64,000 nt of DNA from contig NZ_CBDBZT010000003.1 in assembly GCF_965213655.1 (NCBI RefSeq), forward strand, positions 2,637,389-2,701,388, read 5' to 3'. The notes beneath the pieces were generated by a model, which saw nothing but the letters and a program-made list of their open reading frames with translations, had not been told where the DNA came from and made no database searches. How positions within the stretch are numbered: position 1 is the first letter of the stretch; every line of letters begins with the position of its first letter. The translations under genes were made by a program, and so were the position numbers. This document shows, piece by piece, positions 5,180 through 58,815 of the stretch. Source of the DNA: Candidatus Palauibacter sp. Lineage in GTDB: Bacteria; Gemmatimonadota; Gemmatimonadetes; Palauibacterales; Palauibacteraceae.

Positions 5180-5311
5180 TGAGTCCGGCTCAGAGCCGGA
5201 ACCCCCGCGGTGGAACCTCCGTATGACGAGCTTTCGGAGGCCCGTTGTCGCCGGGCGGGAGGGGATCGGGAGGTCCGGTCTCCGCAATCGTTGTATCCGA
5301 TGGAGAGAGAG

Positions 5312-8065
5312 ATGAAGAAGAAAGGCAGGTTCGCGGCGGTCGCAGGGTTCGTGTCCGCGCTGGTGGCGCCGGGCGCGGTTCAGGCCCAGCTCCCCACGGG
5401 CATCACCGAGGTCGCAAGCGTTGAAGGCATCACGGAGTACCAGCTTGAGAACGGACTCCGCTTTCTGCTCTTCCCCGACCAGAGCAAGCAGCAGATCACG
5501 GTGAACATCACCTATCTCGTGGGTTCGAGGCACGAGGGCTACGGCGAGACGGGCATGGCCCACCTCCTCGAACACCTCGTGTTCAAGGGCACGCCGGACC
5601 ACCCGGACATTCCGAAGGAACTCGACGAGCACGGCGCCTTCCCCAACGGCACCACCTGGTTCGACCGCACGAACTACTTCGAGACGTTCCCGGCTACGGA
5701 CGAGAACCTCGACTGGGCGCTCGATCTCGAGGCGGACCGGATGGTGAACTCGTTCATCGCGGCGGAGGATCTGGAATCCGAGATGACGGTGGTCCGCAAT
5801 GAATGGGAAGCGGGGGAGAACAGCCCCCAGGGCGTGCTCCAGAAGCGGGTGATGTCAGCCGCGTACGACTGGCACAACTACGGCAACTCCACCATCGGGG
5901 CCCGCGCGGACCTCGAGAATGTGCCCATCGACCGGCTGCAGGCCTTCTACCGGAAGTACTACCAGCCGGACAACGCGATCCTCGTCGTGGCCGGACGCTT
6001 CGAACCTGCGCGCGCGCTGGAGCTGGTCGCCGAGAAGTTCGGCCGCATCCCGCGGCCGGACCGCACTGGAGCCAATCAACTCTTCCACACCTACACGGCC
6101 GAACCCGCGCAGGACGGCGAGCGGACGGTGACGCTGCGGCGCGTCGGCGACGTGCAACTCGTGATGGCGGCGTACCACATGCCGCCGGGATCGCACGAGC
6201 AGTTCGCGGCCGTCGACGTGATGACGCACGTGCTGGCCGCCCGTCCGGCCGGACGCCTCTACCAGGCCCTCGTCGAACCGGGACTCGCGGCCGGCGCCTT
6301 CGCCTTCAACTACCAGCTTAACGAGCCCGGCATGCTCCTCACCGCCGCCGAGGTGCGCGAGGAGGATTCCCTCGAGACCGCCGCCGAGACGTTGCTGGAG
6401 ACGGTCCAGGCGCTGGTCGACGAACCCCCGACCGAGGAGGAGGTCGAGCGCGCCAAGACCGACTATCTCTCCGGCATCGAACTCGCGTTCAACAACCCGC
6501 AGGGGATTGCGCTGCAGCTGAGCGAGTGGGCCTCGATGGGAGACTGGCGCCTCTTCTTCCTGCACCGGGATCGCCTCGAGCGCGTGACCCCGGAGGCGGT
6601 ACACCAGGTCGCGCAGGCCTACCTGAAGCCCTCCAATCGGACCATCGGTTACTTCTATCCGGCCGAAGAGACGCCGGCCCGGGCCGAGATCCCGCCGCCG
6701 CCGGACGTCGGGGCGCTGGTTGCCTCGTACACCGGACGCGAAGCGGTGGCGGAGGGAGAGGCGTTCGATCCGACGATCGAGAACATCGAGGCCCGGACGG
6801 AGCGGTTCGAGCTGCCCAGCGGCCTCAAGGTTGCGTTTCTCCAGAAGGAAAACCGAGGTGAAGCCGTGAGCGTGAGCTTTTCGCTTCGGCACGGAACGGA
6901 ACGTGCCCTCATGGGGAAGGCCACCGCAGCCTCGATGGCCGGCTCCATGCTGATGCGCGGCACGGCGAACCGCACGCGTCAGGAGATCTCCGACGAGCTC
7001 GACCGTTTGAAGGCGCAGGGCGGCATCAACGGAAGCATTCTCTCGGCGAGCGGTTCGTTCAGCACCGTGCGCGAGAACCTCCCGGCCGTCCTGCGGCTCG
7101 GCGCCGAGATTCTTCAGCAGCCATCCTTCGACGCGGACGAGTTCGAGTTGCTGCGCGAGGAACGCCTGGCCGGTATCGAGTCACAGATGTCGGAGCCGCA
7201 GGCCCTCGTCAGCCAGGCCTTCGGGCGTCACTTTTCGGACTACGCTGCGGATCATCCCCGCTACGCGCCGACCTATGAGGAGCAGATCGAGCGCTTCGAG
7301 GCCGCGACAGTGGAAGACGCCAGCGCCTTTTGGGAGAGCTTCTACGGCGCGCAGGGCGGTACCATGTCCGTCGTCGGCGATTTCAACGCCACGGAGATCC
7401 GCTCACTCATCGAGGACTTGTTCGGTGACTGGACTGCGAGTGAAGCCTACGCCCGTGTGCCGATCCAGTACCGCGAGGTCGACGCGCTGAGCCTCGACAT
7501 TGAGACCCCCGACAAAGCGAACGCCCTCATGCTTGCCGGGATCTCGATTCAGATGCGAGACGATCACCCCGACTACCCGGCGCTGGTGCTCGGCAACCAC
7601 ATGCTTGGTGGCGGTATGAACTCCCGCCTGTTCAGTCGCATACGGGGTGAGGAAGGGCTGTCGTACGGTGTGGGTTCCCAATACAGCGCCCCTCCGATCG
7701 ATGACAACGCCCAGTTCTTCGCGTTCGCCATCTTTGCACCCGAGAACGCGGACAAGGTGGCCGAATCGTTCCGGGACGAACTTGAGCGCACGCTTGCAGA
7801 CGGCTTTGGGCAGGAAGAATTCGAGGGTGCCAAGCGGGGTTACCTGGACCAGGCGCAGAACAGCCGCTCCAACGACGGGGTCATCGCGAACATGCTGTCG
7901 AACTACATGTTCCTGGACCGTCCGCTCTCGTTCACGAGTGAGCAGGAGGCCGCAATCGAGGCGCTGACGGCCGAGAAAGTCGTGGGTGCGATGCGGAGGC
8001 ACATCGACCCGGCGAAGCTGACGATCATCCGGGGCGGTGACTTCGCCAACAAGCTCGTGCCCTAG
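5312..8065 (+). CDS. Two-domain M16 (pitrilysin/insulinase) family zinc peptidase, secreted
   Basis: HLLEH inverted zinc-binding motif ([13 protein letters not shown]); signal peptide; about 917 aa with duplicated M16 cores; GGAGAG SD before the ATG at 5312. Confidence 0.85.
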
Positions 8066-8120
8066 CAGCCAGCCCCCAGGAGCCGGCGGCCCCCCCCCGC
8101 GCGGGCCCGGCACAGGGGGG

Positions 8121-8153
8121 GACGGCGGGCGGCCGGATCAGCGGCCGCCCGTC
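8121..8153. terminator. Bidirectional GC hairpin between convergent M16 (+) and S9 (-) genes
   Basis: gacggcgggcggccg-gatcag-cggccgcccgtc; spans the S9 gene stop codon. Confidence 0.35.
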
Positions 8154-10705
8154 TGCTCCTGCTCCACGTTCAACTGCGTGATGTCCACGGTCCAGCGCGT
8201 GTCGCCGAGCAGGTGCTTCACGAAGTATTCCGCGCGCAGCCAGAACCAGTAGTCGCTCATGTCCCCGTAGCCGTGCCGCTGGCCGGGGAAGACGAAGTAG
8301 TCGAAGCGCTTGTTGGCCCGGATCAGCGCCTCCGCCATGCGGTGCGTCCCCGCGTGGTGGACGTTGTTGTCGATGTCCCCCGTCGTCAGCAGCAGGTGCC
8401 CCTTGAGGTTCGCGGCCAGGTCCGAGTTCCGTTCGATCTCGTACTCGAAGGTCACGTTCCCGCTGTCGTCGACGACCTCACGCACGCCGTGGTGCTTCTC
8501 CGACCAGTTCTGATTGTAGACGTCGTTGTTGTGGTTCCCCGAGGATGAGACGGCGACTCTGAAGAAGTCCGGGTACACGAGCATGGCCGCCGTCGACATG
8601 AAACCGCCCCCGGAGTGGCCGTAGATCCCGACCCGGTCGATATCGATGAAGTCGTGCCGGTCGCCGAGCTGCTCGATCGCGGTCTTCTTGTCCGCCAGCC
8701 CGTAGTCGCGGAGGTTCCCGTACCCGTAGTTGTGGTACCACTTCGAGCGCGCCGGGTGGCCGCCGCGGTTCCCCACCGTGATCACGATGATCCCGAACTG
8801 GGCCAGCGCTGTCTCGTAGCGCGCCGTCGAGAACGACTTCGCGACCGCCTCCGTCTGCGGCCCCGGGTAGACGTAGGCCACGACCGGGTACGTCTTCGAC
8901 GGATCGAAGTCGAACGGCTTGTACATGACGCCGTACAGGTCGGTCACCCCGTCGGCCGCCTTCACCGTGTACGGTTCGGGGAAGCCGTACCCCGCCTCCT
9001 CCAGCTTCGAGAAGTCGGCGGTTTCGAGGTCGATGATCCGTCGTCCGTTCGCCGCATGGAGCGCCGCCGCCGGGGTCGTGTTGACCCGGGAGTAGTTGCT
9101 GACGAAAAAGCGGTTCGACTCCCCCATTGCGACCCGATGATCGAAGTCGCCGGGGTTCAGCAGCGTCAGCCCGGAGCCGTCCAGATTCACCCGGTACAGG
9201 TGCTGGTAATACGGATCCTCGCCCGCCTCGCGCGCGTTGGCCTGGAAGTAGACGACGCCGGCCGACTCGTCGAGCCCGACCACCTGGCGCACCGACCACG
9301 GACCCTCCGTGAGGCGGTTGCGCAGCGTGCCGTCCGGCCCGAAGCGGTACAGGTGGGCCCAGCCGTCCCGCTCCGACCACCACAGCATGTCGCCCGACTC
9401 GAGGAGTTCGAGCCGCTGGAACTCCACGTACGTGTTGAGCCGCTCCTCGAACAGCACGCGCGCCTCGCCCGTCGCGGCGTCCGCCACCATCACGTCCACG
9501 CGGTGCTGGTCGCGGCTCTGCCTCACGAAGTGGAGTTCGTCCGAGTTCGGCGCGAGCCACAGCGAGCGGAACGGCTCCTCGCTGTCCGGATAGCGGAACT
9601 GGCGCGCAGAGGTCGTGAACAGTCGGTGGTCCTTCCACTCCTCGGGCATCGCGACTTCGACCATGCCGCGTTCCTGCAGGTCGTAGATCAGGAGTTCGGG
9701 CTGACTCACGGTCTCCTCGCCCGGCATGTCGTATTTGTAGGACTCGAGTTCGGGCCGCTCGTTGCCGACCATGTGGATGACCCAGAGATCTCCCGTCTCC
9801 CGCCGGTCGCGGCGTATCAGGGAGAAGCGGCGTGAGTCATGCGACCAGGAGAGCGACACCCGCTTGCGCTCGTCCGCGTTCTCCTCCCGCTCGATGTCCG
9901 TGTCCCCGCGGTCGAACACGGCGTAGCTGTAGTGCTCCTCGCCGTCCGTCGTGAGCTGCGTCTCCTCGACCTCGATCCCCTCCTCCGCTTCGTCGGCCTC
10001 GTCCCCGCTCTTGCCTCGCCGCGCCTCGAGAAACTGCTGGTAGTCATCCCCGCTCATCATGTACAGGTTGTGGTGGCGGGCGAAGATCACGGTCTGCCCA
10101 TCGGGGGACACGCTGGCCCATGAGGGGTGGTTGTCCGGCGCCTCCCAGTCCTCGAGTTCGCGTAGCACGCGGGTGTTCACGTCGTACTCGAAGTGGAACA
10201 CCTTCTTCCGGGCGCGCTGGCGCTGCTGTTCTCCCTCTTCCTCCTCCTCGTCCAGCTCCTCCATCTCCGTTTCCGTCTCCTCCTCCTCTTCGTCCTGAGA
10301 GGACTCGACCTCGAACTGGAGCGTGTTCGCATCGATGAACTTGATCGAGCGGATCGGGAGGTGCTGGCCGTCCCAGGGATCGCGCGTGATGCGGGTGAGT
10401 TCGGCCGCGATCCGGTCGTTGTCGAAGATCTGTCGCTTCGTCCCGGCCACCGGATCCACGATGTAGTAGAAGGAGCCGTCCGAACTCTCCCATTCATACC
10501 AGAAGGACTCCGACCCCTCGATCCAGCGCGGATTGACGGACGTGGAGTAGACGAGGTCCTGGATCTTGTACGGCGCGAAGCGCGCCGCGAGGCGGTAGTT
10601 CGCCGGGCCTTCGGCGGCCTCCTGCGCGGCGAGGGAGGGCGTCAGCAGGATCACGGCGGCGAGCCAACCGAAGGAGCGGAGGCTGAAACGCGCTGCGCGG
10701 TTCAT
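8138..10705 (-). CDS. S9 family serine peptidase (dipeptidyl-peptidase IV / prolyl oligopeptidase family) with acidic low-complexity insert
   Basis: C-terminal alpha/beta hydrolase with GHSGGG (IGIYGHSGGGFMSTAAML); N-terminal beta-propeller region; signal peptide after MNRAARFSL; E-rich insert (DEEEEETETEMEELDEEEEEGE). Confidence 0.85.
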   Translation of the reverse strand: MNRAARFSLRSFGWLAAVILLTPSLAAQEAAEGPANYRLAARFAPYKIQDLVYSTSVNPRWIEGSESFWYEWESSDGSFYYIVDPVAGTKRQIFDNDRIAAELTRITRDPWDGQHLPIRSIKFIDANTLQFEVESSQDEEEEETETEMEELDEEEEEGEQQRQRARKKVFHFEYDVNTRVLRELEDWEAPDNHPSWASVSPDGQTVIFARHHNLYMMSGDDYQQFLEARRGKSGDEADEAEEGIEVEETQLTTDGEEHYSYAVFDRGDTDIEREENADERKRVSLSWSHDSRRFSLIRRDRRETGDLWVIHMVGNERPELESYKYDMPGEETVSQPELLIYDLQERGMVEVAMPEEWKDHRLFTTSARQFRYPDSEEPFRSLWLAPNSDELHFVRQSRDQHRVDVMVADAATGEARVLFEERLNTYVEFQRLELLESGDMLWWSERDGWAHLYRFGPDGTLRNRLTEGPWSVRQVVGLDESAGVVYFQANAREAGEDPYYQHLYRVNLDGSGLTLLNPGDFDHRVAMGESNRFFVSNYSRVNTTPAAALHAANGRRIIDLETADFSKLEEAGYGFPEPYTVKAADGVTDLYGVMYKPFDFDPSKTYPVVAYVYPGPQTEAVAKSFSTARYETALAQFGIIVITVGNRGGHPARSKWYHNYGYGNLRDYGLADKKTAIEQLGDRHDFIDIDRVGIYGHSGGGFMSTAAMLVYPDFFRVAVSSSGNHNNDVYNQNWSEKHHGVREVVDDSGNVTFEYEIERNSDLAANLKGHLLLTTGDIDNNVHHAGTHRMAEALIRANKRFDYFVFPGQRHGYGDMSDYWFWLRAEYFVKHLLGDTRWTVDITQLNVEQEQTGGR

Positions 10706-10894
10706 GGCAACCTCTGTCTTTGTGCGGAAGAAGGACGAAAGGACGTCGGAGAACGTGGAGGCGGCCACATCGGCCTGTCCAGATGGCCGCGCCAGGAGGG
10801 CGCCTTGCCGCGGGTGCTGCACGCACCCCGTCAGCGGGAGCCGGTCCGGGCGACCGGCCCCCCGCCGACAGGGGTTGAAGGAATTCGCCGGTCG

Positions 10895-11302
10895 CTAGTC
10901 GCCGCGTCCGAGCATGATGCCGACCACAGCGCCCGCCGCGCCCCACAGGACTGCGGCGACGACGACATCGACGACGGCCCAGGTGAGCGTCGAGATGTTC
11001 ATCGTGCCCAGCATCACGAACCCGAAGGCGACAGCGAGAAGTGCGCCGATCTTGGCGCCCGCCTTGGCGCCGCCTGCGGCGTCCGTCGCGCCCGCCCAGC
11101 CGAGGACCGTGGCGAGCACGCCACCCGAGGCGAGCTGGCCTACCGCGATCCAGAGGAAATTGGGGGTTTCCTTCATGACACCGGTGGCGGAGCCCATGTT
11201 CGCTTCCATGAATCCGCCGAGCACAAGCTCGTAGAGTACGTAGCCCCCCACGAAAAGGACGACGGCACCGGCGAGTGATGCGACGAGGCACTTCGTGTTC
11301 AT
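10895..11302 (-). CDS. Small integral membrane protein (about 135 aa, 3-4 TM), unknown function
   Basis: Strong SD (GGCGGAGGTAACGCC-ATG); hydrophobic Gly/Ala-rich helices; sits directly downstream of the sterol-reductase-family gene. Confidence 0.55.
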   Translation of the reverse strand: MNTKCLVASLAGAVVLFVGGYVLYELVLGGFMEANMGSATGVMKETPNFLWIAVGQLASGGVLATVLGWAGATDAAGGAKAGAKIGALLAVAFGFVMLGTMNISTLTWAVVDVVVAAVLWGAAGAVVGIMLGRGD

Positions 11303-11465
11303 GGCGTTACCTCCGCCTGAGGCTGGGTGGCCTCCCCTGACACGTCCCGTCCCCGATTTGGCGCAGGCTTGAGACCGAGCCTGCCGACTCTGAACATGGG
11401 AATCCGTAAAGGCAGCCGGCAAGAGAGGTTAGGTGGAGAGCCCGCCGGGACGGCTCGTACAGCCG

Positions 11466-12548
11466 CTAGTACAGCCGCGGCACGATCCTCCAGGGGACCC
11501 GCTCGCGGTAGCGTTCCCACAGCTCACCATACTTTGCCGCGCAACGCCGATCGTCGTCGCGCTCTCGCGGGACGAGGAGCAGCAGGTAGTAGAGCGGATA
11601 CAACCAGGGGCCAAGTTCCGATGGCCGCCCCAGCGAGAGCGCGAGACCCGTCGCCATCAGGATTTCGCCCAGGTAGTTGACGTGTCGGGAAACGCCCCAG
11701 AAACCGCCGCACAGAAGGCGCCGCCGGCCGTCGGAGATCGACGTCTGCGGGAACCGCTCCAGGAAGGGACGGCCGGGATCCCGCTTGAAGGCGTACTTCT
11801 GCATGTTCGCGCCCCGCGCCAGAGTCCAGCCCGCGAAGAACGTCAGGGACGCGAGGACAAGGAGCCACGCGGGCGCCCCCGCATTCGGAAGCGCCGCGAC
11901 GGCCCACAGCCCCACGCAGTAGAACCAGGGGTACCAGGCCAGGCAGCCCCAGATGAGCTTGAAGCCGACCCGCTCCGCGAAGAGGTCGTACGTGTAGAGG
12001 TGGACTCGTTCGAACACCAGGTAGTCGACCACGAACCAGGTCAAAAGGGCGGCATACAGGATGACGCCGGGGGAGGGATCGCCGGGGTACGCCAGCACAT
12101 GGTGGGCGACGAAGGAGAGCAGGTTGAGTTCGAGCAGGATGGCCCCGACGAGATAGAGGACCATCTTGGCATCCGCGCGCCCGCCGAAAAGGCGCGGGTT
12201 CTCCGCCCGCCCGAAAAAGTACTGGGCGACGAACGAGCGGCCGGTCGACGGCGCCCACGCCATCGCCGCCAGCGATAGCAGCACGCCGAGCACGCAGGCC
12301 CCCGCCGCGCCCCACCAACGGTGCTGCCACAGCCAGTCCCAGGGCAGGACGCCGCTGTATCCGGCGATGGCCCAGATCACGAGGCTGACCGCGAAGGTCA
12401 GGAGCCCGTTGATTCGATAGCGGAGGCGCTCCCCGCGCCCATCGATCGCGTAGCCCTCGATGCTGCGGGCCGGGAGCACCACATGGAGCCCGAGAATCCC
12501 CGTGTATACGAGCCAGGGCGCGAAGAAGCCGAGGACGGGATTCGTCAC
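11466..12548 (-). CDS. ERG4/ERG24 family sterol reductase homologue (7-dehydrocholesterol / delta14-sterol reductase-like)
   Basis: Multi-TM; C-terminal signature LLCGGFWGVSRHVNYLGEIL ... RDDDRRCAAKYGELWERYRERVPWRIVPRLY matches the sterol reductase family motif and NADPH-binding tail. Confidence 0.8.
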   Translation of the reverse strand: MTNPVLGFFAPWLVYTGILGLHVVLPARSIEGYAIDGRGERLRYRINGLLTFAVSLVIWAIAGYSGVLPWDWLWQHRWWGAAGACVLGVLLSLAAMAWAPSTGRSFVAQYFFGRAENPRLFGGRADAKMVLYLVGAILLELNLLSFVAHHVLAYPGDPSPGVILYAALLTWFVVDYLVFERVHLYTYDLFAERVGFKLIWGCLAWYPWFYCVGLWAVAALPNAGAPAWLLVLASLTFFAGWTLARGANMQKYAFKRDPGRPFLERFPQTSISDGRRRLLCGGFWGVSRHVNYLGEILMATGLALSLGRPSELGPWLYPLYYLLLLVPRERDDDRRCAAKYGELWERYRERVPWRIVPRLY

Positions 12549-12552
12549 GCGG

Positions 12553-14043
12553 TCACGGGATCGGGGGTTTCTGGTCCCTCGGGATCGGGGATTGCCACGG
12601 CCGGCCCGCCGTGGATCGACCGTGCGCCCCCTTCGCCGCGGCGAGCAGGTCGGGGTCGGTCAGGAGATCCACGCCCGTCATCGCCATGACCCGCGCGGCC
12701 ACATCGGCCGCGGCCGCCGCCCACTCGGTCCCGTGCGAAGCGCTCGTCGCCCAGGAATGCCACGGGACGCCCTTCGGGGCGGACGTCACTTCGAGCTGGA
12801 CCGTCGGCGTGAGCCAGCTCACTTCCGCCACATCGGTGGATCCGCCCTGCGCCGGGGTCGGGCGGGCCGCGAGCGGTTGTACGTCGATGTCGAGTCCCAC
12901 CTGCTCGATGTCGAGGCCGGCCTGCATCTCACGGCCCCAGGCCTGGAAGGCATCCGGGAATCGCGGCCCTCCGACCGCCTCCAGGTTGGCCTGCATCGCC
13001 TCCTGCAGGGGACGGTTGAGCAGCAGGGCATGGACGCCCGTGATGAGCGAGACCTCGTGCTCGGTGCGGGTCGCCTGGGCGGCGGCGTCGGCGATGTCGA
13101 GCAGCCACTCGTAGTACTCATCGACGTTCGCCCGCAGCGTGTCGCGAACGTAGTACCACACCTTCGCGTACTCGGGCACGACGTTCGGCGCCTCACCGGC
13201 GTTCGGCATCACATAGTGGATGCGGGTCGAGGGATAAACGTGCTCGCGCATCAGGTTCGCGCCGTAGTTCATCATCTCCGCGGCATCGAGCGCGCTGCGC
13301 CCGTTCCACGGATCCGCCGCGGAGTGCGCGGCCTGACCCCGGAACTCCACCGTGAAGTTGTTCATGGCCTGCGTCGAGGCGTTCGTGACCCGCGTCTCCG
13401 TCATGGGGTGCCACACCAGCGTCGCGTCCACCCCGTCGAACACCCCCGCGTTGGCCATGTACACCTTGCCGACGACCGTCTCCTCCGCCGGCGTGCCGAA
13501 CAGGCGCACCTCGCCGGCGATATCCCGATCCACCATCGCACGCTTGATCGCGATCGCGGCGCCGACCGACCCCGCCCCGAACAGGTTGTGCCCACAGCCC
13601 TGCCCGCTCGTGACACCGTCCGCCCGCGACTGCCGATGCGGCACCGGTTCGTTCCCGACGCCCGGCAGCGCGTCGTACTCCGCCAGGACTCCGAGCACGG
13701 GGCCCCCGCTGCCGTGGCTGAAGGTCGCCGTGAAAGCGGTGGGCATGCCGGCGACACCGGTTTCGACCTCGAACCCTTCGGCCGCCAGCAGGCCGGCGAG
13801 ATACTCCGCCGAGCGATGCTCGAGCAGCGCGATCTCCGAGTACTCCCACAGCGTCATCGACATCTCCCGGATCTCGTCCGCCAGGTCGTCGAGCGCTTCC
13901 AACGCGGCGATCTTCTCGGCCGACACGCCCCGCATGAGGGCGGTGGGCGTCTGCGACGCCAGAGGCACGGGGGCGGTGAAGAACACAAACGCCGCGACAA
14001 CTGCCGGGAATGCGGCGGTCCTCGTAAGTGATGTCCGGTGCAT
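12553..14043 (-). CDS. M20D-family amidohydrolase (AbgB / aminobenzoyl-glutamate hydrolase-like), exported
   Basis: Signal peptide; GQGCGHNLFGAGS, LFGTPAEE, M20 dimerisation region; C-terminal tail may be over-extended. Confidence 0.75.
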   Translation of the reverse strand: MHRTSLTRTAAFPAVVAAFVFFTAPVPLASQTPTALMRGVSAEKIAALEALDDLADEIREMSMTLWEYSEIALLEHRSAEYLAGLLAAEGFEVETGVAGMPTAFTATFSHGSGGPVLGVLAEYDALPGVGNEPVPHRQSRADGVTSGQGCGHNLFGAGSVGAAIAIKRAMVDRDIAGEVRLFGTPAEETVVGKVYMANAGVFDGVDATLVWHPMTETRVTNASTQAMNNFTVEFRGQAAHSAADPWNGRSALDAAEMMNYGANLMREHVYPSTRIHYVMPNAGEAPNVVPEYAKVWYYVRDTLRANVDEYYEWLLDIADAAAQATRTEHEVSLITGVHALLLNRPLQEAMQANLEAVGGPRFPDAFQAWGREMQAGLDIEQVGLDIDVQPLAARPTPAQGGSTDVAEVSWLTPTVQLEVTSAPKGVPWHSWATSASHGTEWAAAAADVAARVMAMTGVDLLTDPDLLAAAKGAHGRSTAGRPWQSPIPRDQKPPIP

Positions 14044-14096
14044 TTGAAGATCCTCGCGTAGCTGGGTACGTCTCGCCCGGGCCGACCCGAGGCCTG

Positions 14097-15383
14097 TTAG
14101 AACCGGTCCAGCCGCGGGTTCACGACGTTGGAATAGATCGATCCGAACGTGTAGGAGAAGCCCACCGACACGCCATACTCGAAGCCGCTCTGGAGGATCC
14201 GCTGGCGAAGGAGGACCTCCTCCGTCGTGGCATCGCCGGCCGGTACGTTGAGCTGATCGCGGATGCGGGAGTAATTCGCGTCCAGCCGCAGCGACAGTCC
14301 CCGGAAGATCCGGAAATCAGCCCCGGCGAAAGCCGTGAAGCGGTTCTTGGACGGATCGTGGAGGAACTGGGAGAACGTCAGAAAACCGTACGATTCGCCC
14401 CACGGCTGGCGGACGCTGAGGCGGACGCTGAACCGGTGGTGGGGGAGGGTCTCCTCGTCCTTGAGGAAGACGGTCTGCTCGATGTAGTCGTGGTACCGGA
14501 GGCCGATCGTGTAGAGGAAATTGAACTGCCTGCGGGTCGACTCGGAGTAGGGGAAGATATTGTACTCCAGCGCCGGCCCCACCTGGAGTTGCAGGTCTTC
14601 GTTCGCGAAGCTGGAGTGCCCCAACTCGAACGCGGTCCCCGCCGACCAGTGGTCCGACAGGCTCCACACGGTGAGACCCTCCGCATCGTAGCTCTCGCGG
14701 ATGCTGGTCACCGAGGTGGTGTCGGAAGTCTCGAAGAGACTCCGGTCGTAGCTCCCATCGATGGAAAACTCGAGCTTCAGAGCGTCCGTGACCCGGTCGG
14801 CCGAGAACCCGCTTTCGAGTTCGTACGATTCGGTGCGCTCGTCGACGTCGAGTTCAACGTGGGCGCGCAGCCGGAAGGTCCAGAAGTTCCAGGGGTCGTC
14901 CTCGGGCCGGGCGGGGATCTCGCCGTGTTCCGCTCCGTCGTAGTGGATATCGATGCTGGGAGCCTGACCGGTGCGGGCAATGTAGCGAAGGAGCCCCAGT
15001 TCGAGGGTGTGCGCCACCTCGGTCAGTCGCTGTTCCACCGCGAGATTCGCGCGGGTCACGACTTCGAGCCGGTCCGTGACCTCGATGAACTCCTCCCGGC
15101 CTATGAAGTCCAGCGTGAAGCGCTGGCCTCCGCTGCCCGTGCCCTCCGAGGTCATCAGGACATGGACCTGCGCGTCCTCGCGGTCGCGCGTGTAGTTCAC
15201 GTACGGGATCTCGCGCCGGTAAAAGTCGAAGTCGCACATCCCTCGGCCGCCCTCGCAATCGAAGAAGACGCGAAGGGCGCCGTTGCCGTTGGCGACGGGC
15301 GTCACCTCCTGCGCGGTCAGGGGGACGGCGACCAGGCAGGCCGCGGCGACGAGGCCGGCTGCGATGCTCGAAGAGGGTTTCAC
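14097..15383 (-). CDS. Hypothetical outer-membrane beta-barrel protein
   Basis: Signal peptide (AACLVAVPLTAQE); alternating amphipathic strands; terminal ...RLDRF aromatic C-terminus. Confidence 0.55.
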   Translation of the reverse strand: MKPSSSIAAGLVAAACLVAVPLTAQEVTPVANGNGALRVFFDCEGGRGMCDFDFYRREIPYVNYTRDREDAQVHVLMTSEGTGSGGQRFTLDFIGREEFIEVTDRLEVVTRANLAVEQRLTEVAHTLELGLLRYIARTGQAPSIDIHYDGAEHGEIPARPEDDPWNFWTFRLRAHVELDVDERTESYELESGFSADRVTDALKLEFSIDGSYDRSLFETSDTTSVTSIRESYDAEGLTVWSLSDHWSAGTAFELGHSSFANEDLQLQVGPALEYNIFPYSESTRRQFNFLYTIGLRYHDYIEQTVFLKDEETLPHHRFSVRLSVRQPWGESYGFLTFSQFLHDPSKNRFTAFAGADFRIFRGLSLRLDANYSRIRDQLNVPAGDATTEEVLLRQRILQSGFEYGVSVGFSYTFGSIYSNVVNPRLDRF

Positions 15384-17045: not shown

Positions 17046-17188
17046 CCTCGGCGGACTGCCGGGAGGCGCGGGCCGCGTACCGCTTGCCGCGGGCCGCCGC
17101 CTCCGTATAGTCGATCACGCCGATCCTCGGGACACACGCGCGGACCGGCCCCGGCACCTTGAACTCCCGCAACCCGGCCAGGAGCTCC

Positions 17189-18562
17189 ATGTCCGCTTTC
17201 GCCGCCTACATCGACCGCGAACTCACCCGATTTCACGACGAGCTGGCGACCTTCCTCCGAATCCCCAGCATCAGCACAGACGCCGAGCACGCGGGCGACG
17301 TCCGCGCCTGCGCCGACTGGGTCGCCGGACACCTCAGGGCGGCGGGCGTCCCCGAGGCCGAGGTCATCCAGACCGGAGGGCACCCCATCGTTGTGGGCGA
17401 ACGGATCCACTCCGAAGACGCCCCCACCGTGCTCGTATACGGGCACTACGACGTGCAGCCCTCGGAGCCGGACGAACTGTGGACGAGCCCGCCGTTCGAG
17501 CCGGAGGTTCGCGACGGCCGCCTCTACGCGCGCGGATCGATCGACGACAAGGGACAGGTCCACATGCACATCAAGGCGCTCGAGACGCGGCTGGCGTCCG
17601 GGGCGGATGTGCCCGTGAATCTCAAGCTCGTCATCGAGGGCGAGGAGGAGGTGGGAAGCCGCCACCTGGCGGCGTTCCTCCACGAGCACGCCGAGCGGCT
17701 CGCCTGCGATGCGATCCTCGTCAGCGACACCGGGATGTTTTCTCCCGAGTTGCCGTGCATCACGACCGGCCTGCGCGGGATCGTCTATACCGAGATCAAC
17801 GTCTTCGGTCCCGCGTCGGACCTGCACTCCGGCACGTACGGTGGCGCGGTCGTGAACCCCGCCAACGCCCTGGCCGCCATCCTCGCCGGGCTCCGCGACG
17901 AGCACGGCCGGGCGACCGTGCCGGGGTACTACGACGCCGTCCGGCCCATCAGCGCCCGCGAACGGGCGGACCTCGAACGCCTGCCCATGGACGAAGAGAC
18001 GCTGCGGACGGGCGTCGGAGCGCCGGCCCTCGGAGGAGAAGCCGGGTTCTCGGCGCTGGAGCGCCTGTGGTATCGTCCCACGCTCGACGTCAACGGACTC
18101 CTCAGCGGATTCACCGGCGAAGGCTCGAAGACCGTCCTCCCCTCGCAGGCGATGGCGAAGGTGTCGATGCGGCTGGTTCCGGATCAGGACCCGGCACAGG
18201 TGATCGAGGCCTTCGAGGCCCGCGTGCGCGAGCTGGCGCCGGAGGGCGTGACCGTCGAGATCAAGCGCTCACACGGCGGCGCGCCGTGGGTGGCCGACAC
18301 CGGGCATCCCATCTTCGACGCCGCCTCCGCAGCGCTGGAGTCGGGTTTCGGCGCCCGGCCCGCCTACGTTCGAGAGGGCGGCTCGATCCCCATCGTCCAG
18401 GAATTCGAGGAGACCTTCGACGCGCCCGCGCTCCTCATCGGCTTCGCGCTCCCGGGATGCAACATGCACGCGCCGGACGAGTGGATCGATCTCGGCGTCT
18501 ACCGCAAGGGAATCGCGGCGCTCGCCGACCTGTACGGCCGGCTCGGCGACCATCTGCCCTGA
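17189..18562 (+). CDS. M20 family dipeptidase (Sapep/ArgE/DapE-like)
   Basis: YGHYDVQP, ARGSIDDKG, EGEEEVGS metal-binding motifs; SD before the ATG at 17189. Confidence 0.8.
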   Translation: MSAFAAYIDRELTRFHDELATFLRIPSISTDAEHAGDVRACADWVAGHLRAAGVPEAEVIQTGGHPIVVGERIHSEDAPTVLVYGHYDVQPSEPDELWTSPPFEPEVRDGRLYARGSIDDKGQVHMHIKALETRLASGADVPVNLKLVIEGEEEVGSRHLAAFLHEHAERLACDAILVSDTGMFSPELPCITTGLRGIVYTEINVFGPASDLHSGTYGGAVVNPANALAAILAGLRDEHGRATVPGYYDAVRPISARERADLERLPMDEETLRTGVGAPALGGEAGFSALERLWYRPTLDVNGLLSGFTGEGSKTVLPSQAMAKVSMRLVPDQDPAQVIEAFEARVRELAPEGVTVEIKRSHGGAPWVADTGHPIFDAASAALESGFGARPAYVREGGSIPIVQEFEETFDAPALLIGFALPGCNMHAPDEWIDLGVYRKGIAALADLYGRLGDHLP

Positions 18563-37332: not shown

Positions 37333-40194
37333 ATGTCCAATCCCCGTCAGATCCGCCGCTTCCGGTTCGTCGCCCTCGGCTTCGCCACGGTCCTCGCCGC
37401 CTGCTCCACCGGTGGCGGCGGCTTTACGATCGACTACGAGAAGTACGAACTGCCCAACGGGCTCGACGTGGTCCTGCACGTGGATCGCTCCGATCCGATC
37501 GCCGCCGTCGCGATGACCTTCCACGTCGGCTCGTCACGTGAGGTCCCCGGCAAGACCGGCTTCGCGCATCTCTTCGAGCACCTCTTCTTCCTCGATTCCG
37601 AGAACCTCGGCCCCGGCGGCCTCGACCGTCTCATGACGCGCGTGGGAAGCTCGACGAACGGATCCACGAGCCGCGACCGAACGAACTACTTCGAGGTCGT
37701 GCCGAGCGACGCGCTCGAGAAGGCGCTGTGGGCGGAGGCGGACAAGCTCGGCTTCTTCATCAACACCGTGACCGAGGACGTCGTCGCGAAGGAAAAGCAG
37801 GTCGTCAAGAACGAGAAGCGCCAGTCGGTCGACAACCGCCCCTACGGCCACTCGAGCTTCGTCCTCGACCAAGCAATGTATCCCGAGGGACACCCGTACC
37901 GGTGGCAGGTCATCGGCTCGCTGGAGGATCTCGACGGCGCGACGCTCGCCGACACGAAGGACTTCCACTCGAAGTGGTACGGGCCGAACAACGCCACCCT
38001 CGTCGTCGCCGGCGACATCGATGTAGCGCGGACGAAGGAATGGATCGAGCGCTACTTCGGCGAGATCCCGTCGCGACCCATGCCGGACCGCGCGCCGCTC
38101 CCCGACGTCACGCTGGAGGATGCGGAGCGGTTCGTGCACGAAGACAACTTCGCGCAGCTTCCGCAGCTCACGCTCGCGTGGCCCACCGTCCCTCTCTATC
38201 ACCCGGACGCCTACCCGCTCTCGCTGCTCGCCACGCTCCTGACGGACGGGAAGACCGCGCCCTTCTACGAGGTGATCGTGGAAGAGGAGAAGCTCGCGCC
38301 CTCGGCGAACATGTTCGCCTTCCATCAGGAACTCGCCGGCCAGATGCGGCTCACGATCCGCGCCTTCCGCGATACCGACCTCGATGCGGTGCACGCGGGG
38401 GTGGACCAGGCCTTCGCGCGCTTCGAGGAGGAGGGCGTGCCGGCCGCGGATCTGGAGCGCGTGAAGGCGGGGTACGAGACCTCCTTCTACGGCGGGCTCT
38501 CCAGCGTGCTGGGCAAGGCGTTCCAGCTCGCCCAGTACAACATCTTCGCGGGCGATCCCGGATATGTCGCGGAGGATATCGAACGCATTCTCGCGGTGAC
38601 GGAGGCTGATGTCCTGCGCGTGTACGAGACGTATCTCGCGGGTCGGCCTTCCATCGCGAGCAGCTTCGTCCCGCGCGGACGGCCGGAGCTGGCGCTCGAG
38701 GGCTCGGTCCGAGCCACGGTGGTGGAGGAACCCATCGTTCTCGGCGCCGAGGCGCCGGTCGCGATCGACGACCGGAGCGATATTCCGCGCACCCCATCGG
38801 AGATCGACCGCTCGGTGGAGCCCGGGTTCGGGCCGCCCCCCAGCCTCTCGGCACCGACCGTGTTCACGGAGTCACTGACCAACGGGGTCTCCGTGAAGGG
38901 GATCGAAGACCGGGAGACCCCGCTGGTCCAGTTCGAACTGCGGCTGGCCGGCGGGCTCCTGCTCGAAGATCCGGCCCGCGTCGGCGCGGCGAACCTCCTC
39001 GCGCAGATCATGACAGAGGGGACCGCGAGCCGCACGCCGGAGGAACTGGAGTAGGCGATCGACGCCCTCGGCGCTTCGATCTCCGTCTCATCGGGCCGTG
39101 AGAGCTTCGTCATCCGGGGGTCGAGTCTGAACCGCAACTTTCCGGAGATGATGGCGCTCGTCGAGGAGATCCTCCTCGAGCCCCGCTTCGACCCCGAGGA
39201 GTTCGATCTCGCCCGCGACCGCGTTCGGAACCAGCTGCGTCAGGCCTCGTCGTCTCCCGTCTCGATCGCGGGTGACGTCATGACTCGGCTCCTCTATGGA
39301 GACCACATCCTGGGCAGCAACGCCCGCGGTAGCGTGGAGGGGGTCGAAGCCCTGACGCTCGATGACGCGCGGGAGTACTACGAGCGCGTGCTGACGCCGG
39401 GCCGGGCGTCCGTGCACGTCGCCGGTGCGGTGGCCCCGGGGGAAGTTCTGGCGGCGCTGGAAGGGATCGGCGCCCGCTGGGGCGGCGAGGCGCCCGCGTT
39501 GCCGGACGCCCCGGAGGCCCAGGCCGCGGCGCCGGGACTCTATTTCGTCGATGTACCGAACGCGAGCCAGTCCGTCCTTCAGGTGGGGTACCTCGCGCTC
39601 GCCGAGACGGACCCGGAGTTCTGGCCGGCCCAGATTGCGAACTTCCGGCTCGGAGGAGGCGGCTTCGCGTCGGACCTCACGCAGATCCTGCGTGAGGGGA
39701 AGGGCTACACCTACGGGGCCGGCTCCGGGTTCCGGGGCACGAATCTGCGGGGTCCCTTCCTCATCTCATCCTCCGTGCGCTCCAACGTGACGTACGAATC
39801 GCTCGAGATCATCCGCGATCTGCTGGACAGCTACGGGCCCGAGTTCGACGAAGAGGACCTTGCGGCCACGAAGAGCTTCCTCCTCAAGACCAACGCGCGG
39901 GCGTTCGAGACGCTCGGGAACAAGCTCGGCATCCTGGCCGACATGAGCGCGTACGGCTTCCCGCCGGACTACCTGCTGCGGCGCGAGGGCGTGGTTCAGG
40001 AGATGACGGTCGAACGGATCCGCGAAATCGCGGACGCTCACCTGGACCGCGGGCGTTTCATCTGGCTCGTGGTCGGCGACGCCGCCACGCAACTGGACCG
40101 GCTGTCCGCGCTCGGCATCGGCGAGCCCGTTCTCCTCGATCGCTCCGCCGCTCCCGCCGCAGCGCCGGGAGCGGGAGGCGGAGATGGGCAATGA
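37333..40194 (+). pseudogene. Two-domain M16 family zinc peptidase (lipoprotein) interrupted by a single in-frame TAG at 39052-39054
   Basis: HLFEH zinc motif (GFAHLFEHLFF); lipobox LAACS; ORFs 37333..39054 and 39148..40194 share one frame and continue as ...TPEELE*AIDALGASISVS...; total 953 codons, like the intact paralogue at 5312..8065. Confidence 0.7.
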
Positions 40195-41878
40195 GCGCGG
40201 TACGTGGCGGGGAGTGCCCGTTCGTGAGGCCGTCTGCGGGGGTCTGCTGATGCTCTCCGGGGCGTGCGCGCCGGACGCCGCGCCCCCCGCGGAGGCGGTG
40301 CGGGGGATCGAGGACGCCGGGCTGCGGGAGCACATCGCGGTCCTCGCCTCGGACGAGTTCGAGGGGCGTGCCCCCGTCTCCCGCGGCGAGGAACTGACGA
40401 TCGCGTATATCTCCGAGGCGTTCGAGGCTGCGGGGCTCGAGCCCGGGAACGCCGGGGCCTGGCTGCAGGAGGTTCCCCTGGTGTCGATCACCGCCGACCC
40501 CGGGATGCGGCTCGCCATCGCCGGAGAAGGGCGCGACACGCCGCACGAGTACGGCACGGAGATGATGGCTTGGACGAAGCGCGTCATCGACCGCAGCGGG
40601 CTGCAGAGTTCCGAGCTGGTCTTTGTCGGGTACGGCGTCGTGGCGCCCGAGTACGGTTGGGACGACTACGCCGGGATCGACGTGACCGGGAAGACGGTCG
40701 TCATGCTGGTGAACGATCCGGGCTACGCGACGGGCGACCCCGCGCGCTTCAACGGCCGGGCGATGACGTACTACGGCCGGTGGACGTACAAGTTCGAGGA
40801 GGCCGGTCGGCAGGGGGCGGCCGGAGCTTTCATCATCCACGAGACGGAGGCGGCGGGCTACCCGTGGGAGGTCGTCACCAGCAGTTGGTCCGGCCCGCAG
40901 TTCACCCTCGTCGCCGAGGACGCGAACCTGTCGCGGCCCGCCGTCGAGGGCTGGCTGACGCACGATGCCGCGGCGGTGCTGTTCGAGCGCGCGGGGCTTG
41001 ACCTCGCAGCCCTGCGTTCCGACGCGGCAAGAGAAGATTTCCGGGCGGTATCCCTGGGGCTGACCGCGAGTCTGGAGATCCGCAACACCATCGAGCGCTC
41101 GACATCGCACAACGTCGTCGGCCGGCTCGCGGGATCGCACCGCGCGGATGAAGCGGTCGTCTACATGGCGCACTGGGACCATCTCGGGAAGGACGAGACG
41201 CTGGACGGCGACCGCATCTACAACGGGGCACTCGACAACGCGACCGGCGTCGCGGGCCTCATCGAGATCGCCGCGGCCTTCGGCGGCCTCGAGCGCCCGC
41301 CCGCCCGCACCATCCTGTTCCTCGCCGTCACCGCCGAGGAACAGGGCCTCCTCGGTTCGGACCACTACGGCGAACGGCCGGTCCATCCGCTCGACCGGAC
41401 GATTGCGGCCATCAACATGGACGGCCTGAACACGGCGGGGCCGATGAACGACATCACGGTGGTCGGTCTCCGCAACTCCGATCTGGACGTGTACCTTGAA
41501 GCGGTCGTCTCGGCGGCAGATCGCGTGATACGCGCGGACCCGGAGCCCGAAAAGGGCTTTTTCTATCGCTCCGATCACTTCAACTTTGCGAAGCGGGGCG
41601 TGCCGGCCCTGTACACCGACGCCGGAATCGACCATGTAACTGAAGGGGAGACGTACGGTCGCCGGATGCGCGAGGAGTACACGGCGGAACGGTATCACAA
41701 GCCGACGGACGAGTACGATCCGTCCTGGGACCTGAACGGCGCCGTGGACGACTTGAGGCTGTTGTTCGAGATGGGCTACCGGCTGGCCCAGGGTGCCGAG
41801 TGGCCCAACTGGCGCGAGGGGAACGAGTTTCGTGCCGCACGTGAGCGAATGATGGAAGGAGCGGGTGGGGGCGACTGA
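40184..41878 (+). CDS. M28 family zinc aminopeptidase with PA domain
   Basis: SHNVVGRL, AHWDH, GALDNATGVAGLIEIA, SDHFNF motifs; signal/lipoprotein N-terminus. Confidence 0.85.
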   Translation: MGNERGTWRGVPVREAVCGGLLMLSGACAPDAAPPAEAVRGIEDAGLREHIAVLASDEFEGRAPVSRGEELTIAYISEAFEAAGLEPGNAGAWLQEVPLVSITADPGMRLAIAGEGRDTPHEYGTEMMAWTKRVIDRSGLQSSELVFVGYGVVAPEYGWDDYAGIDVTGKTVVMLVNDPGYATGDPARFNGRAMTYYGRWTYKFEEAGRQGAAGAFIIHETEAAGYPWEVVTSSWSGPQFTLVAEDANLSRPAVEGWLTHDAAAVLFERAGLDLAALRSDAAREDFRAVSLGLTASLEIRNTIERSTSHNVVGRLAGSHRADEAVVYMAHWDHLGKDETLDGDRIYNGALDNATGVAGLIEIAAAFGGLERPPARTILFLAVTAEEQGLLGSDHYGERPVHPLDRTIAAINMDGLNTAGPMNDITVVGLRNSDLDVYLEAVVSAADRVIRADPEPEKGFFYRSDHFNFAKRGVPALYTDAGIDHVTEGETYGRRMREEYTAERYHKPTDEYDPSWDLNGAVDDLRLLFEMGYRLAQGAEWPNWREGNEFRAARERMMEGAGGGD

Positions 41879-50137: not shown

Positions 50138-50216
50138 GCCGTCAAGCTAGTCGGACCTCAGCGCCAGCGGCCAGCCGTCCCACCCGGCTCCGGCCGCGCC
50201 GGGCTCGGCGGTCGGG

Positions 50217-51405: not shown

Positions 51406-51418
51406 CCGTCCTCTTCCA

Positions 51419-51664: not shown

Positions 51665-51744
51665 GCGCCTCCTTACGGGAGCCCCGCTCCCAGGGTGTCG
51701 CCGTGGCGGCACGCCGCCGGGCCGCCGATGGGGGGATCGCCGCT

Positions 51745-58784: not shown

Positions 58785-58815
58785 ACCGCGACCCACACGG
58801 ATCGGGTTGCCCAAG

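What the first reader, a model, noticed from the sequence alone, without database searches (positions are those of the whole stretch)
11466..12548. Eukaryote-type ERG4/ERG24 sterol-reductase homologue in a bacterial chromosome
The protein carries the full sterol-reductase C-terminal signature (LLxxGFWGxSRHxNYxGE ... RRCAAKYGELWERYRERVPWRIVP). Among bacteria this family is patchily distributed and is usually linked to sterol or hopanoid modification. The locus contains no other sterol-synthesis genes (no oxidosqualene cyclase or squalene monooxygenase), so the substrate is open. A small multi-TM protein with a strong RBS sits immediately downstream.
Basis: partly seen in the sequence, partly recalled or inferred. 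Interest (0 to 1): 0.5.

Follow-up and report, generated by a model that had tools for sequence, protein, structure and literature searches.

The report
Atypical sterol-reductase-like enzyme in sponge symbiont
This gene from a sponge-associated Gemmatimonadota bacterium encodes a membrane reductase of the sterol-reductase (ERG4/ERG24) fold that belongs to a previously unrecognised, uncharacterised branch of the family, which keeps the NADPH site but lacks the usual catalytic tyrosine, so its substrate is probably not the one its annotation suggests.

Summary
The ORF is real: 11466-12548, minus strand, 360 aa. It is a clear ERG4/ERG24 protein (Pfam 169 bits; AF2 model matches MaSR1 at TM 0.85). 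It is identical to WP_420449477.1 of Candidatus Palauibacter, where NCBI labels it "DUF1295". It is not a Δ14, Δ7 or Δ24(28) sterol reductase. In NJ trees it falls in a 100%-supported separate superclade, which I call "Phe-type". In that superclade the predicted catalytic Tyr (MaSR1 Y241) is Phe, while the NADPH-binding residues stay invariant. New invariant polar residues appear (H183, K197, C202, Y206, Y321). The superclade also contains uncharacterised proteins from choanoflagellates, chytrids, Aphanomyces, a dinoflagellate and a brown alga. The window's bacterial clade is very tight (64-72% identity across phyla) and comes largely from sponge-symbiont MAGs. In 30 of 36 loci the gene is preceded by an abutting or overlapping SDR gene. 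The Palauibacter copy lacks that partner, and the 64-kb window has no sterol genes. A paralogous clade (33-38% identity) does sit in true sterol-synthesis clusters in other symbionts. The most likely function is an NAD(P)H-dependent membrane C=C reductase acting on a sterol-like lipid. The substrate is unknown.

The parts
11466..12548 (-). Gene for the 360-aa ERG4/ERG24-fold membrane reductase ('Phe-type' subfamily, clade A). It is identical to WP_420449477.1 of Candidatus Palauibacter sp.
   Evidence: ORF; Pfam PF01222 169 bits; MaSR1 E=9e-45; exact-sequence look-up; AF2 pLDDT 95 / pTM 0.93; Foldseek 4QUV TM 0.85; dN/dS 0.16.
11931..12035 (-). Codons for residues 172-206, the remodelled substrate/nicotinamide side of the pocket. 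F172 replaces the predicted catalytic Tyr. Y176, E180, H183, D188, K197, C202 and Y206 are subfamily-invariant or nearly so.
   Evidence: Column-by-column comparison of 79 Phe-type and 28 canonical sequences; invariant columns of the 117-sequence alignment A1; catalytic residue assignment from PMC12489058.
11664..11714 (-). Codons for residues 279-295 (LLCGGFWGVSRHVNYLGE), the conserved cofactor-binding motif. H289, N291 and Y292 are invariant. E295 sits at the position of the predicted catalytic Asp.
   Evidence: N291 corresponds to LBR N547 / MaSR1 N359, which is shown experimentally to be needed for NADPH binding (PMC4951196).
11478..11567 (-). Codons for residues 328-357 (RERDDDRRCAAKYGELWERYRERVPWRIVP), the C-terminal cofactor-binding motif. 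R328, D332, K339 and Y340 are conserved. D331 replaces an Arg that is invariant in canonical enzymes.
   Evidence: R328 corresponds to LBR R583 / MaSR1 R395 (PMC4951196).
10895..11302 (-). Downstream 135-aa small multi-TM protein with GGAGG at 11310-11314. It is a lineage-specific neighbour and not part of the family-level module.
   Evidence: Sequence read; no Pfam or NCBIfam match; homologue only in L001 among 80 loci.
12553..14043 (-). Upstream M20-family amidohydrolase, separated from the reductase start by 4 nt, so probably co-transcribed. It is absent at this position in the closest relative L001, so it is probably not functionally linked.
   Evidence: Pfam and NCBIfam TIGR01891; no homologue clustered in any of the 80 loci; L001 ORF layout; no promoter-like or terminator-like sites in 10700-14300.

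Best explanation
The gene encodes an integral-membrane, NAD(P)H-dependent carbon-carbon double-bond reductase with the MaSR1/ERG24 fold. It belongs to an uncharacterised subfamily ('Phe-type') that is distinct from the Δ14, Δ7 and Δ24(28) sterol reductases. Shown: the fold; family membership; conservation of the cofactor-binding residues; replacement of the predicted proton-donating Tyr by Phe throughout the subfamily; appearance of new invariant polar residues (H183, K197, C202, Y206, Y321); purifying selection; absence of sterol-synthesis genes nearby; and near-universal coupling to a classical SDR gene in the bacterial clade, though not in this genome. Inferred: the enzyme takes a hydrophobic, sterol-like or isoprenoid membrane lipid from the bilayer and transfers hydride from NAD(P)H. 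In an organism with no nearby synthesis genes, that lipid is probably obtained from the sponge host or the community. The general-acid Tyr needed to protonate an isolated alkene is gone and an SDR is the conserved partner. The most likely chemistry is therefore reduction of a carbonyl-conjugated double bond: the SDR oxidises an alcohol to an enone or enal, the membrane enzyme saturates the C=C, and the SDR may reduce the carbonyl back. This parallels DHRSX/SRD5A3 in dolichol synthesis and 3β-HSD/5α-reductase in stanol formation. In Ca. Palauibacter the reductase stands alone, so any partner must be encoded elsewhere.
For: Family and fold: Pfam 169 bits; 4QUV E=9e-45; AF2 pLDDT 95 and Foldseek TM 0.85. 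Cofactor site: N248, K251, H289, N291, Y292, R328, D332, K339 and Y340 are invariant, and N291 and R328 are equivalent to LBR N547 and R583, which are required for NADPH binding. Separate subfamily: NJ bootstrap 100% for the Phe-type superclade, 93-94% for clade A, and 100% for the split from all characterised enzymes. Catalytic Tyr lost: Phe in 43/43 clade A and 77/79 Phe-type sequences, against Tyr in 28/28 canonical sequences; the residue role comes from PMC12489058. In clade C the changes co-vary: Y172 occurs together with Q183, G202 and I/V321. SDR coupling: 30/36 loci by tblastn, and a TGA stop overlapping the start codon in 19 of 29 junctions read. Not de novo sterol synthesis: no sterol genes in 64 kb, whereas paralogous clade B lies in OSC/CYP51/SdmAB/SMT clusters. 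Members occur in anaerobic-digester Spirochaetes and in groundwater MAGs. Precedent for an SDR plus membrane reductase: PMC11250103. Functional gene: dN/dS 0.16.
Against: No biochemical data exist for any member of the subfamily. The catalytic role of MaSR1 Y241 is predicted from structure and docking; I could not find direct proof. A relocated proton donor would allow a classical sterol-alkene reduction instead. The window gene itself has no SDR neighbour, so the coupled mechanism is extrapolated from relatives. The SDR is generic, and its best NCBIfam matches are far below their cut-offs. Some Phe-type sequences lack Y321. The trees are distance-based (NJ) with few characterised references.
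Confidence: 0.45

Rival explanations
1. It is a sterol reductase that uses the classical carbocation mechanism with a relocated proton donor (for example Y321, H183 or Y206). It acts on an isolated double bond of host-derived or community-derived sterols at a position different from Δ14, Δ7 or Δ24(28). The SDR is an accessory enzyme.
For: All characterised family members reduce sterol alkenes. F172 and Y321 look like a Tyr/Phe swap within the list of pocket residues given in PMC12489058. Clade C has the reverse combination. The clade is enriched in symbionts of sterol-rich sponges. The eukaryotic members come from sterol-producing protists.
Against: ERG4, DHCR7 and ERG24 act on three different bonds and all keep the same Tyr, so regiochemistry alone does not require losing it. 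Several Phe-type sequences have neither Y172 nor Y321 (P0228, P0322, P0326, P0334). Asp271, proposed to contact the sterol 3-OH, is Cys here. The tight SDR coupling is left unexplained.
Confidence: 0.25
2. It is the canonical Δ14-sterol reductase (KEGG/JGI-style annotation 'delta14-sterol reductase') and takes part in bacterial de novo sterol synthesis.
For: The best solved-structure match is the Δ14 reductase MaSR1. JGI names several homologues 'delta14-sterol reductase'. Sterol clusters occur in sponge symbionts, including Gemmatimonadetes (PMC9531527).
Against: It is phylogenetically outside the Δ14 clades. The predicted catalytic Tyr is missing. No clade A locus is linked to CYP51 or OSC, whereas paralogous clade B always is. 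No sterol genes occur in the window.
Confidence: 0.06
3. It reduces a non-sterol membrane lipid, such as a polyprenol or other isoprenoid, a polyene or another allylic alcohol. The family resemblance to sterol reductases concerns only the cofactor-binding scaffold.
For: The substrate side of the pocket is remodelled: W to L twice, F to A, D to C and Y to F. Members occur in anaerobic-digester and groundwater bacteria, where sterols are not made. The SDR's nearest model is a lipid (mycolate) reductase. SRD5A3/DHRSX is a precedent on polyprenol.
Against: No isoprenoid or polyprenol genes are linked in any locus examined. The strong association with sterol-rich hosts and with sterol-producing eukaryotes favours a steroid-like substrate.
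Confidence: 0.2
4. It is a catalytically dead or non-reductase protein, such as a sterol/lipid binder or sensor, or a DUF1295/ICMT-like methyltransferase.
For: The predicted catalytic Tyr is lost. NCBI labels the clade 'DUF1295 domain-containing protein'.
Against: All cofactor-contacting residues are invariant over a deep eukaryote-bacteria divergence. New invariant polar residues appear in the pocket. dN/dS is 0.16. The DUF1295 hit is only 27 bits and partial, against 169 bits for ERG4_ERG24. ICMT and SRD5A structures match only at E~0.02 and TM~0.4.
Confidence: 0.04

Closest known systems
MaSR1, Δ14-sterol reductase of Methylotuvimicrobium alcaliphilum (PDB 4QUV)
   Same: Same fold (TM-score 0.85, rmsd 2.9 Å over 356 columns; 30% identity). 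Same NADPH-binding residues and the same C-terminal motifs.
   Different: The window protein lacks TM1 (its alignment starts at MaSR1 residue 74). It has F172 for Y241, E295 for D363, C202 for D271, D331 for R398, and W209/W370 replaced by Leu. It lies on the other side of a 100%-supported split.
Eukaryotic sterol reductases ERG24/TM7SF2/LBR (Δ14), DHCR7/DWF5 (Δ7) and ERG4 (Δ24(28))
   Same: Pfam family PF01222 and the cofactor site. Glu at the catalytic-Asp position and Cys at D271 also occur in Arabidopsis Δ7-reductase.
   Different: Identity is 19-32%. The window protein is not nested in any of these orthology groups. All of them keep the Tyr that is Phe here.
ERG24-like reductases of sponge-symbiont sterol gene clusters ('CSGs', Kelly et al. 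2022; clade B here)
   Same: Same communities, similar length (about 366 aa), Glu at the catalytic-Asp position, and cross-phylum spread.
   Different: Clade B keeps the catalytic Tyr. It is always flanked by SdmA/SdmB-like genes, CYP51 and a fused squalene-epoxidase/oxidosqualene-cyclase gene. It is only 33-38% identical to the window protein.
DHRSX + SRD5A3 (three-step dolichol route) and 3β-HSD + steroid 5α-reductase
   Same: Both pair a short-chain dehydrogenase with a polytopic membrane NADPH-dependent C=C reductase, which then acts on a carbonyl-conjugated double bond (PMC11250103). SRD5A is a distant structural relative.
   Different: They belong to a different Pfam family (SRD5A, 7 TM). 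The analogy rests only on gene linkage (30/36 loci) and loss of the acid Tyr. It has not been tested, and the partner is absent from this window.
Orphan sterol reductases of non-sterol-producing intracellular bacteria (Coxiella Δ24 reductase; chlamydial homologues)
   Same: An ERG4/ERG24-family gene in a bacterium without a sterol pathway, thought to modify host sterols (cited in PMC9666466; PMC2817430).
   Different: According to those papers, these belong to the ERG4 and DHCR7 orthology groups. The window protein belongs to neither.

Membership tests
ERG4/ERG24 superfamily (Pfam PF01222) | Profile match above the gathering score over most of the domain | tested here: met
   169.2 bits against a cut-off of 27; profile positions 82-432 of 432.
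ERG4/ERG24 superfamily (Pfam PF01222) | MaSR1-type polytopic fold | tested here: met
   AF2 pLDDT 95; Foldseek 4QUV TM 0.85, E=4e-19. The first TM of MaSR1 is absent.
ERG4/ERG24 superfamily (Pfam PF01222) | NADPH-binding residues (MaSR1 N316, K319, H357, N359, Y360, R395, D399, K406, Y407) | tested here: met
   All are identical in the window protein and invariant in the subfamily. N359 and R395 are validated through LBR N547D and R583Q.
ERG4/ERG24 superfamily (Pfam PF01222) | Predicted catalytic pair Tyr241/Asp363 (MaSR1 numbering) | tested here: not met
   F172 is at the Tyr position (Phe in 43/43 clade A; Tyr in 28/28 canonical). E295 is at the Asp position, a conservative change also found in Arabidopsis Δ7-reductase and clade B.
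Δ14-sterol reductase (ERG24/TM7SF2/LBR/MaSR1, EC 1.3.1.70) | Placement inside the Δ14 orthology group | tested here: not met
   It is separated by a split with 100% bootstrap support.
Δ14-sterol reductase (ERG24/TM7SF2/LBR/MaSR1, EC 1.3.1.70) | Genomic linkage to CYP51 and oxidosqualene cyclase in bacteria | tested here: not met
   No linkage in the window. No OSC in any of the 36 clade A loci; the only P450s there are unclassified ones in the Acidimicrobiia loci. The linkage is present in clade B.
Δ14-sterol reductase (ERG24/TM7SF2/LBR/MaSR1, EC 1.3.1.70) | Reduction of Δ8,14-diene sterols | not testable with these tools
   Requires a heterologous expression assay.
Δ7-sterol reductase (DHCR7/DWF5) and Δ24(28)-reductase (ERG4) | Placement inside the respective orthology group | tested here: not met
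   22-29% identity to DHCR7 and ST7R, and 19% to ERG4. It does not group with them, whereas two 452-aa proteins from clade B clusters do group with ERG4 at 100%.
DUF1295 (PF06966) / steroid 5α-reductase / ICMT group (the NCBI label) | Best profile or fold match to these families | tested here: not met
   DUF1295 scores only 27 bits over residues 196-304. SRD5A and ICMT structures match at E~0.02 and TM 0.41-0.44. The relation holds at superfamily level only.
'Phe-type' ERG4/ERG24 subfamily (defined here) | Signature L139, F172, H183, K197, C202, Y206, E295, Y321, D/E331 on a conserved cofactor site; monophyly | tested here: met
   All signature residues are present. The superclade has 100% bootstrap support.
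'Phe-type' ERG4/ERG24 subfamily (defined here) | Bacterial clade A module: SDR gene directly upstream with stop/start overlap | tested here: not met
   Present in 30/36 clade A loci. Absent from the window and from L001. The only weak SDR-like tblastn hit in the window lies inside a Zn-ADH gene.

The most novel reading that the evidence does not exclude
The Phe-type ERG4/ERG24 enzymes, together with their coupled SDR, form an unrecognised lipid-saturation pathway. It would run as oxidise, conjugate-reduce, re-reduce, analogous to DHRSX/SRD5A3. The pathway would be shared by diverse aquatic eukaryotes (choanoflagellates, chytrids, oomycetes, dinoflagellates, brown algae) and spread horizontally among sponge symbionts. 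There it could remodel host sterols, for example by forming stanols or other unusual sponge or dinoflagellate sterol nuclei whose enzymes are unknown. If so, it would bear on the origin of sponge sterol and sterane signatures.
Probability: 0.2. Interest if true: 0.75.

Novelty: new variant of a known kind. Interest (0 to 1): 0.55.

Why it matters
Automated pipelines call this protein either 'delta14-sterol reductase' or 'DUF1295'. Both labels are misleading. The work here shows a deep, well-supported and apparently uncharacterised branch of the sterol-reductase family, with an intact cofactor site and a rebuilt catalytic and substrate side. The branch occurs both in many protist and fungal lineages and in bacteria associated with sponges. 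Metagenomic studies count such genes as evidence for bacterial sterol synthesis in sponges. Separating this branch from the true sterol-cluster enzymes changes that inference. The conserved two-gene SDR-reductase cassette is small and well suited to heterologous expression, so the function can be tested directly. For this particular window, however, the gene is a solitary copy with no informative neighbours.

Tried and rejected
(1) The NTF2-type bacterial 8,14-sterol reductase paper (PMC13277303) concerns an unrelated protein family.
(2) My first neighbourhood count, based on my own ORF caller, found the SDR in only 9 loci. The caller over-extended the reductase ORF across the SDR. tblastn corrected the count to 30/36.
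(3) PROSITE-like sterol-reductase patterns written from memory match ERG24, ERG4, TM7SF2, LBR and MaSR1. They fail on the genuine Δ7-reductases as well as on all Phe-type proteins, so they cannot serve as a membership test.
(4) My recalled Arabidopsis FACKEL sequence was not an exact database match, so I did not use it.
The AFDB50 library was not installed.
(6) The MaSR1 paper is not held, and no open paper mentions DHCR7 Y280C.
(7) The window protein is not indexed for contig look-up.
(8) Clade C neighbourhoods were uninformative: a transposase and unrelated genes.
(9) Domain fusions in long eukaryotic members gave only a FUN14 domain and one probable gene-model chimera with an epimerase/3β-HSD domain.
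(10) The Palauibacterales genome paper does not mention sterols.
(11) Rfam and the promoter/terminator scans found nothing.
(12) A 976-aa ORF at 50131-53061 is a spurious antisense ORF.

Full report
**Observation.** The ORF at 11466..12548 (minus strand, GTG start, 360 aa) exists as reported. Pfam assigns it to ERG4_ERG24 (PF01222) at E=1.7e-49 and 169 bits, covering profile positions 82-432. The DUF1295 match is weak and partial, at 27 bits. NCBIfam has no model for it. The best solved relative is the Δ14-sterol reductase MaSR1 (4QUV, E=9e-45), aligned from MaSR1 residue 74, so the first transmembrane helix is missing. A fungal Δ14 reductase (9L5R) follows. An AlphaFold2 model built on 117 sequences is very confident (pLDDT 95, pTM 0.93). 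It superposes on 4QUV with TM-score 0.85. Steroid 5α-reductase and ICMT match only marginally. The exact sequence is WP_420449477.1, 'DUF1295 domain-containing protein [Candidatus Palauibacter sp.]'. That genus belongs to the Gemmatimonadota, and its species epithets refer to sponge and coral hosts. Comparison with an 87% identical Gemmatimonadetes MAG gives dN/dS = 0.16. GC and GC3 are the same as in neighbouring genes.

**Surroundings.** The window holds secreted peptidases (M16, S9, M20, M28), the suf operon, icd, rsgA, a TonB receptor, a PQQ dehydrogenase and similar genes. It holds no cyclase, squalene epoxidase or synthase, P450, sterol methyltransferase, SdmA/B or SSD transporter, and no Rfam hit. 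The downstream small membrane protein is real: ATG at 11302, GGAGG 7 nt upstream, 135 aa. It has a homologue only in the closest relative, L001. An M20 amidohydrolase ends 4 nt before the reductase start, but it is absent at that position in L001.

**Relatives and their contexts.** There were 2919 hits among the 8000 candidates scored. The best 120 listed are all 64-98% identical and about 360 aa long. A scan of one genome per GTDB species returned 80 loci, which fall into two groups.

- Clade A (55-87% identity, 34 loci) includes Pseudomonadales, Acidimicrobiia (Ca. Poriferisodalis), Ca. Azophilus, Azotimanducaceae, Spirochaetes, Myxococcota and Saprospiraceae.
- Clade B (33-38% identity) includes Nitrospirales, Arenicellales, Rhodospirillales, Thermoanaerobaculia and Dehalococcoidia.

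Many of these MAGs come from sponges. The 'jk18x' isolate names are those of the Ircinia study. Clade B always sits in a sterol-synthesis cluster. That cluster holds an SdmB-like NAD enzyme, an SdmA-like Rieske protein, the reductase, a P450, a roughly 1189-aa fused squalene-epoxidase/oxidosqualene-cyclase, sterol methyltransferases and an MMPL/SSD transporter. These are the published sponge-symbiont 'CSGs' (PMC9531527; PMC10070321). Clade A is never in such a cluster. Instead, tblastn shows a classical SDR of about 260 aa directly upstream on the same strand in 30 of 36 loci. Its TGA stop overlaps the reductase start codon (GTGA, ATGA or CTGATG) in 19 of 29 junctions inspected (Pfam-annotated examples). 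The window and L001 are among the few exceptions.

**Phylogeny.** I verified the reference sequences by exact look-up (DHCR7, TM7SF2, LBR, yeast ERG24 and ERG4, Arabidopsis Δ7-reductase). With these references and MaSR1, an NJ tree (342 columns, 100 bootstraps) gave the following supports. Clade A is monophyletic at 94%. Clade A plus a small clade C has 100% and clade B has 100%. A 100% split separates these bacterial clades from all characterised enzymes. An exhaustive search of 1.84 billion representatives found 1878 relatives. The full-length members of clade A collapse into a single 50% cluster. The next-best hits (42-51% identity over residues ~100-360) are uncharacterised eukaryotic proteins. 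They come from Monosiga brevicollis, at least seven chytrids, Aphanomyces, Polarella, Ectocarpus and MMETSP/EukProt protists. In a second tree these proteins plus clades A and C form a 100%-supported superclade. Clade A keeps 93% support within it.

**Active site.** PMC12489058 lists the predicted catalytic pair (MaSR1 Y241/D363, equal to ScERG24 Y257/D374) and 20 pocket residues. The adenosine-phosphate side of the pocket is conserved in the window protein: N248, K251, H289, N291, Y292, R328, D332, K339 and Y340. Mutations at the LBR equivalents of N291 and R328 abolish NADPH binding (PMC4951196). At the catalytic Tyr position the window protein has F172. That position is Phe in 43/43 clade A and 77/79 superclade sequences, and Tyr in 28/28 canonical sequences, including clade B. 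Other discriminating positions are:

- L139 (Trp in canonical enzymes)
- H183 (M/I/V)
- K197 (Met)
- C202 (Asp)
- Y206 (V/I/L)
- Y321 (F/L/M)
- D331 (Arg in 28/28)
- E295 (Asp; Glu also occurs in clade B and in plant Δ7-reductase)

Clade C has the complementary set (Y172, Q183, G202, I/V321). This suggests that these positions form one functional unit.

**Interpretation.** The protein almost certainly binds NAD(P)H and reduces a C=C bond in a bilayer-resident lipid. It is not one of the known sterol reductases, and in this genome it is not part of a local sterol pathway. ERG4, DHCR7 and ERG24 all keep the acid Tyr despite acting on different bonds. Losing that Tyr while gaining a coupled SDR points to reduction of a carbonyl-activated double bond. 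DHRSX/SRD5A3 provides a precedent for that arrangement (PMC11250103). This step is inference. A classical mechanism with a relocated proton donor, or a non-sterol substrate, remains possible. The substrate is unknown. A host-derived or community-derived sterol-like lipid is the most economical guess, given the family, the sponge association and the eukaryotic distribution.

**Novelty.** The enrichment of ERG24-like genes in sponge symbionts, both 'scattered' and clustered, has been published. I found no paper that distinguishes this subfamily, notes the missing Tyr or the SDR coupling, or characterises any member. It is therefore a new variant of a known kind. For the window itself the finding is of moderate interest, because the local context adds nothing to function.

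Noticed in passing
L044:12261-15830 (also L038, L040, L042, L046 and others): In clade B sterol clusters of sponge-symbiont MAGs, squalene epoxidase and oxidosqualene cyclase are fused into a single protein of about 1150-1290 aa (SE + FAD_binding_3 + SQHop_cyclase N/C). It lies next to a P450, SdmA/SdmB-like genes, SMTs and an MMPL/SSD transporter.
   Followed up: partly
L041:16863-18221 (-) and L055:17104-18462 (+): A second, 452-aa reductase in two clade B clusters groups with yeast ERG4 (100% bootstrap) and lies beside sterol methyltransferases. It is a candidate bacterial Δ24(28)-reductase that would complete side-chain alkylation.
   Followed up: partly
L035:8780-11089 (Ca. Poriferisodalis): Two tandem copies of a clade C reductase (378 and 377 aa), which retains the Tyr and lacks H183, C202 and Y321. 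They lie about 1 kb from a DDE transposase (6288-7598). Nitrospira bin75 carries both a clade C copy (L039) and a clade B copy (L071).
   Followed up: partly
window 11466-12548 and the whole clade: NCBI names the entire clade 'DUF1295 domain-containing protein' although ERG4_ERG24 scores six times higher. JGI names the same proteins 'delta14-sterol reductase'. Both labels are likely to mislead pathway reconstructions.
   Followed up: yes
P0229 (Monosiga brevicollis A9VAA6): The literature notes a puzzling 'C7-reductase orthologue' in Monosiga that does not fit its Δ7-containing sterols (PMC4967820). The Phe-type paralogue found here might be that gene, mis-assigned. I did not check this.
   Followed up: no
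P0273 (785 aa, metagenomic): An ERG4_ERG24 domain is followed by an NAD-epimerase/3β-HSD domain, and both are truncated. It is probably a gene-model chimera of two neighbouring genes. If the fusion is real, it is a second link between this subfamily and an NAD(P)-dependent dehydrogenase.
   Followed up: no
window 5210-10822, 12553-14043, 17159-18562, 37333-41878: An unusual density of secreted peptidases: M16 (5210-8065, 37333-39054, 39148-40194), S9 DPP-IV (8138-10822), M20 (12553-14043, 17159-18562) and M28 (40184-41878). This suggests a protein- or peptide-degrading lifestyle.
   Followed up: no
window 53134-53733 and 58618-60273: A SnoaL-like (NTF2-fold) protein, and a 551-aa protein combining an NmrA/epimerase/3β-HSD-like domain with DUF2867. 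The latter gave a weak tblastn hit to SdmB-like proteins. Both lie 40-47 kb from the reductase, and there is no evidence of linkage.
   Followed up: no
window 50131-53061: A 976-aa Arg-rich ORF with low GC3 and no Pfam hit is a spurious antisense read-through. The real genes are on the minus strand (50257-51405 and 51745-53067).
   Followed up: yes
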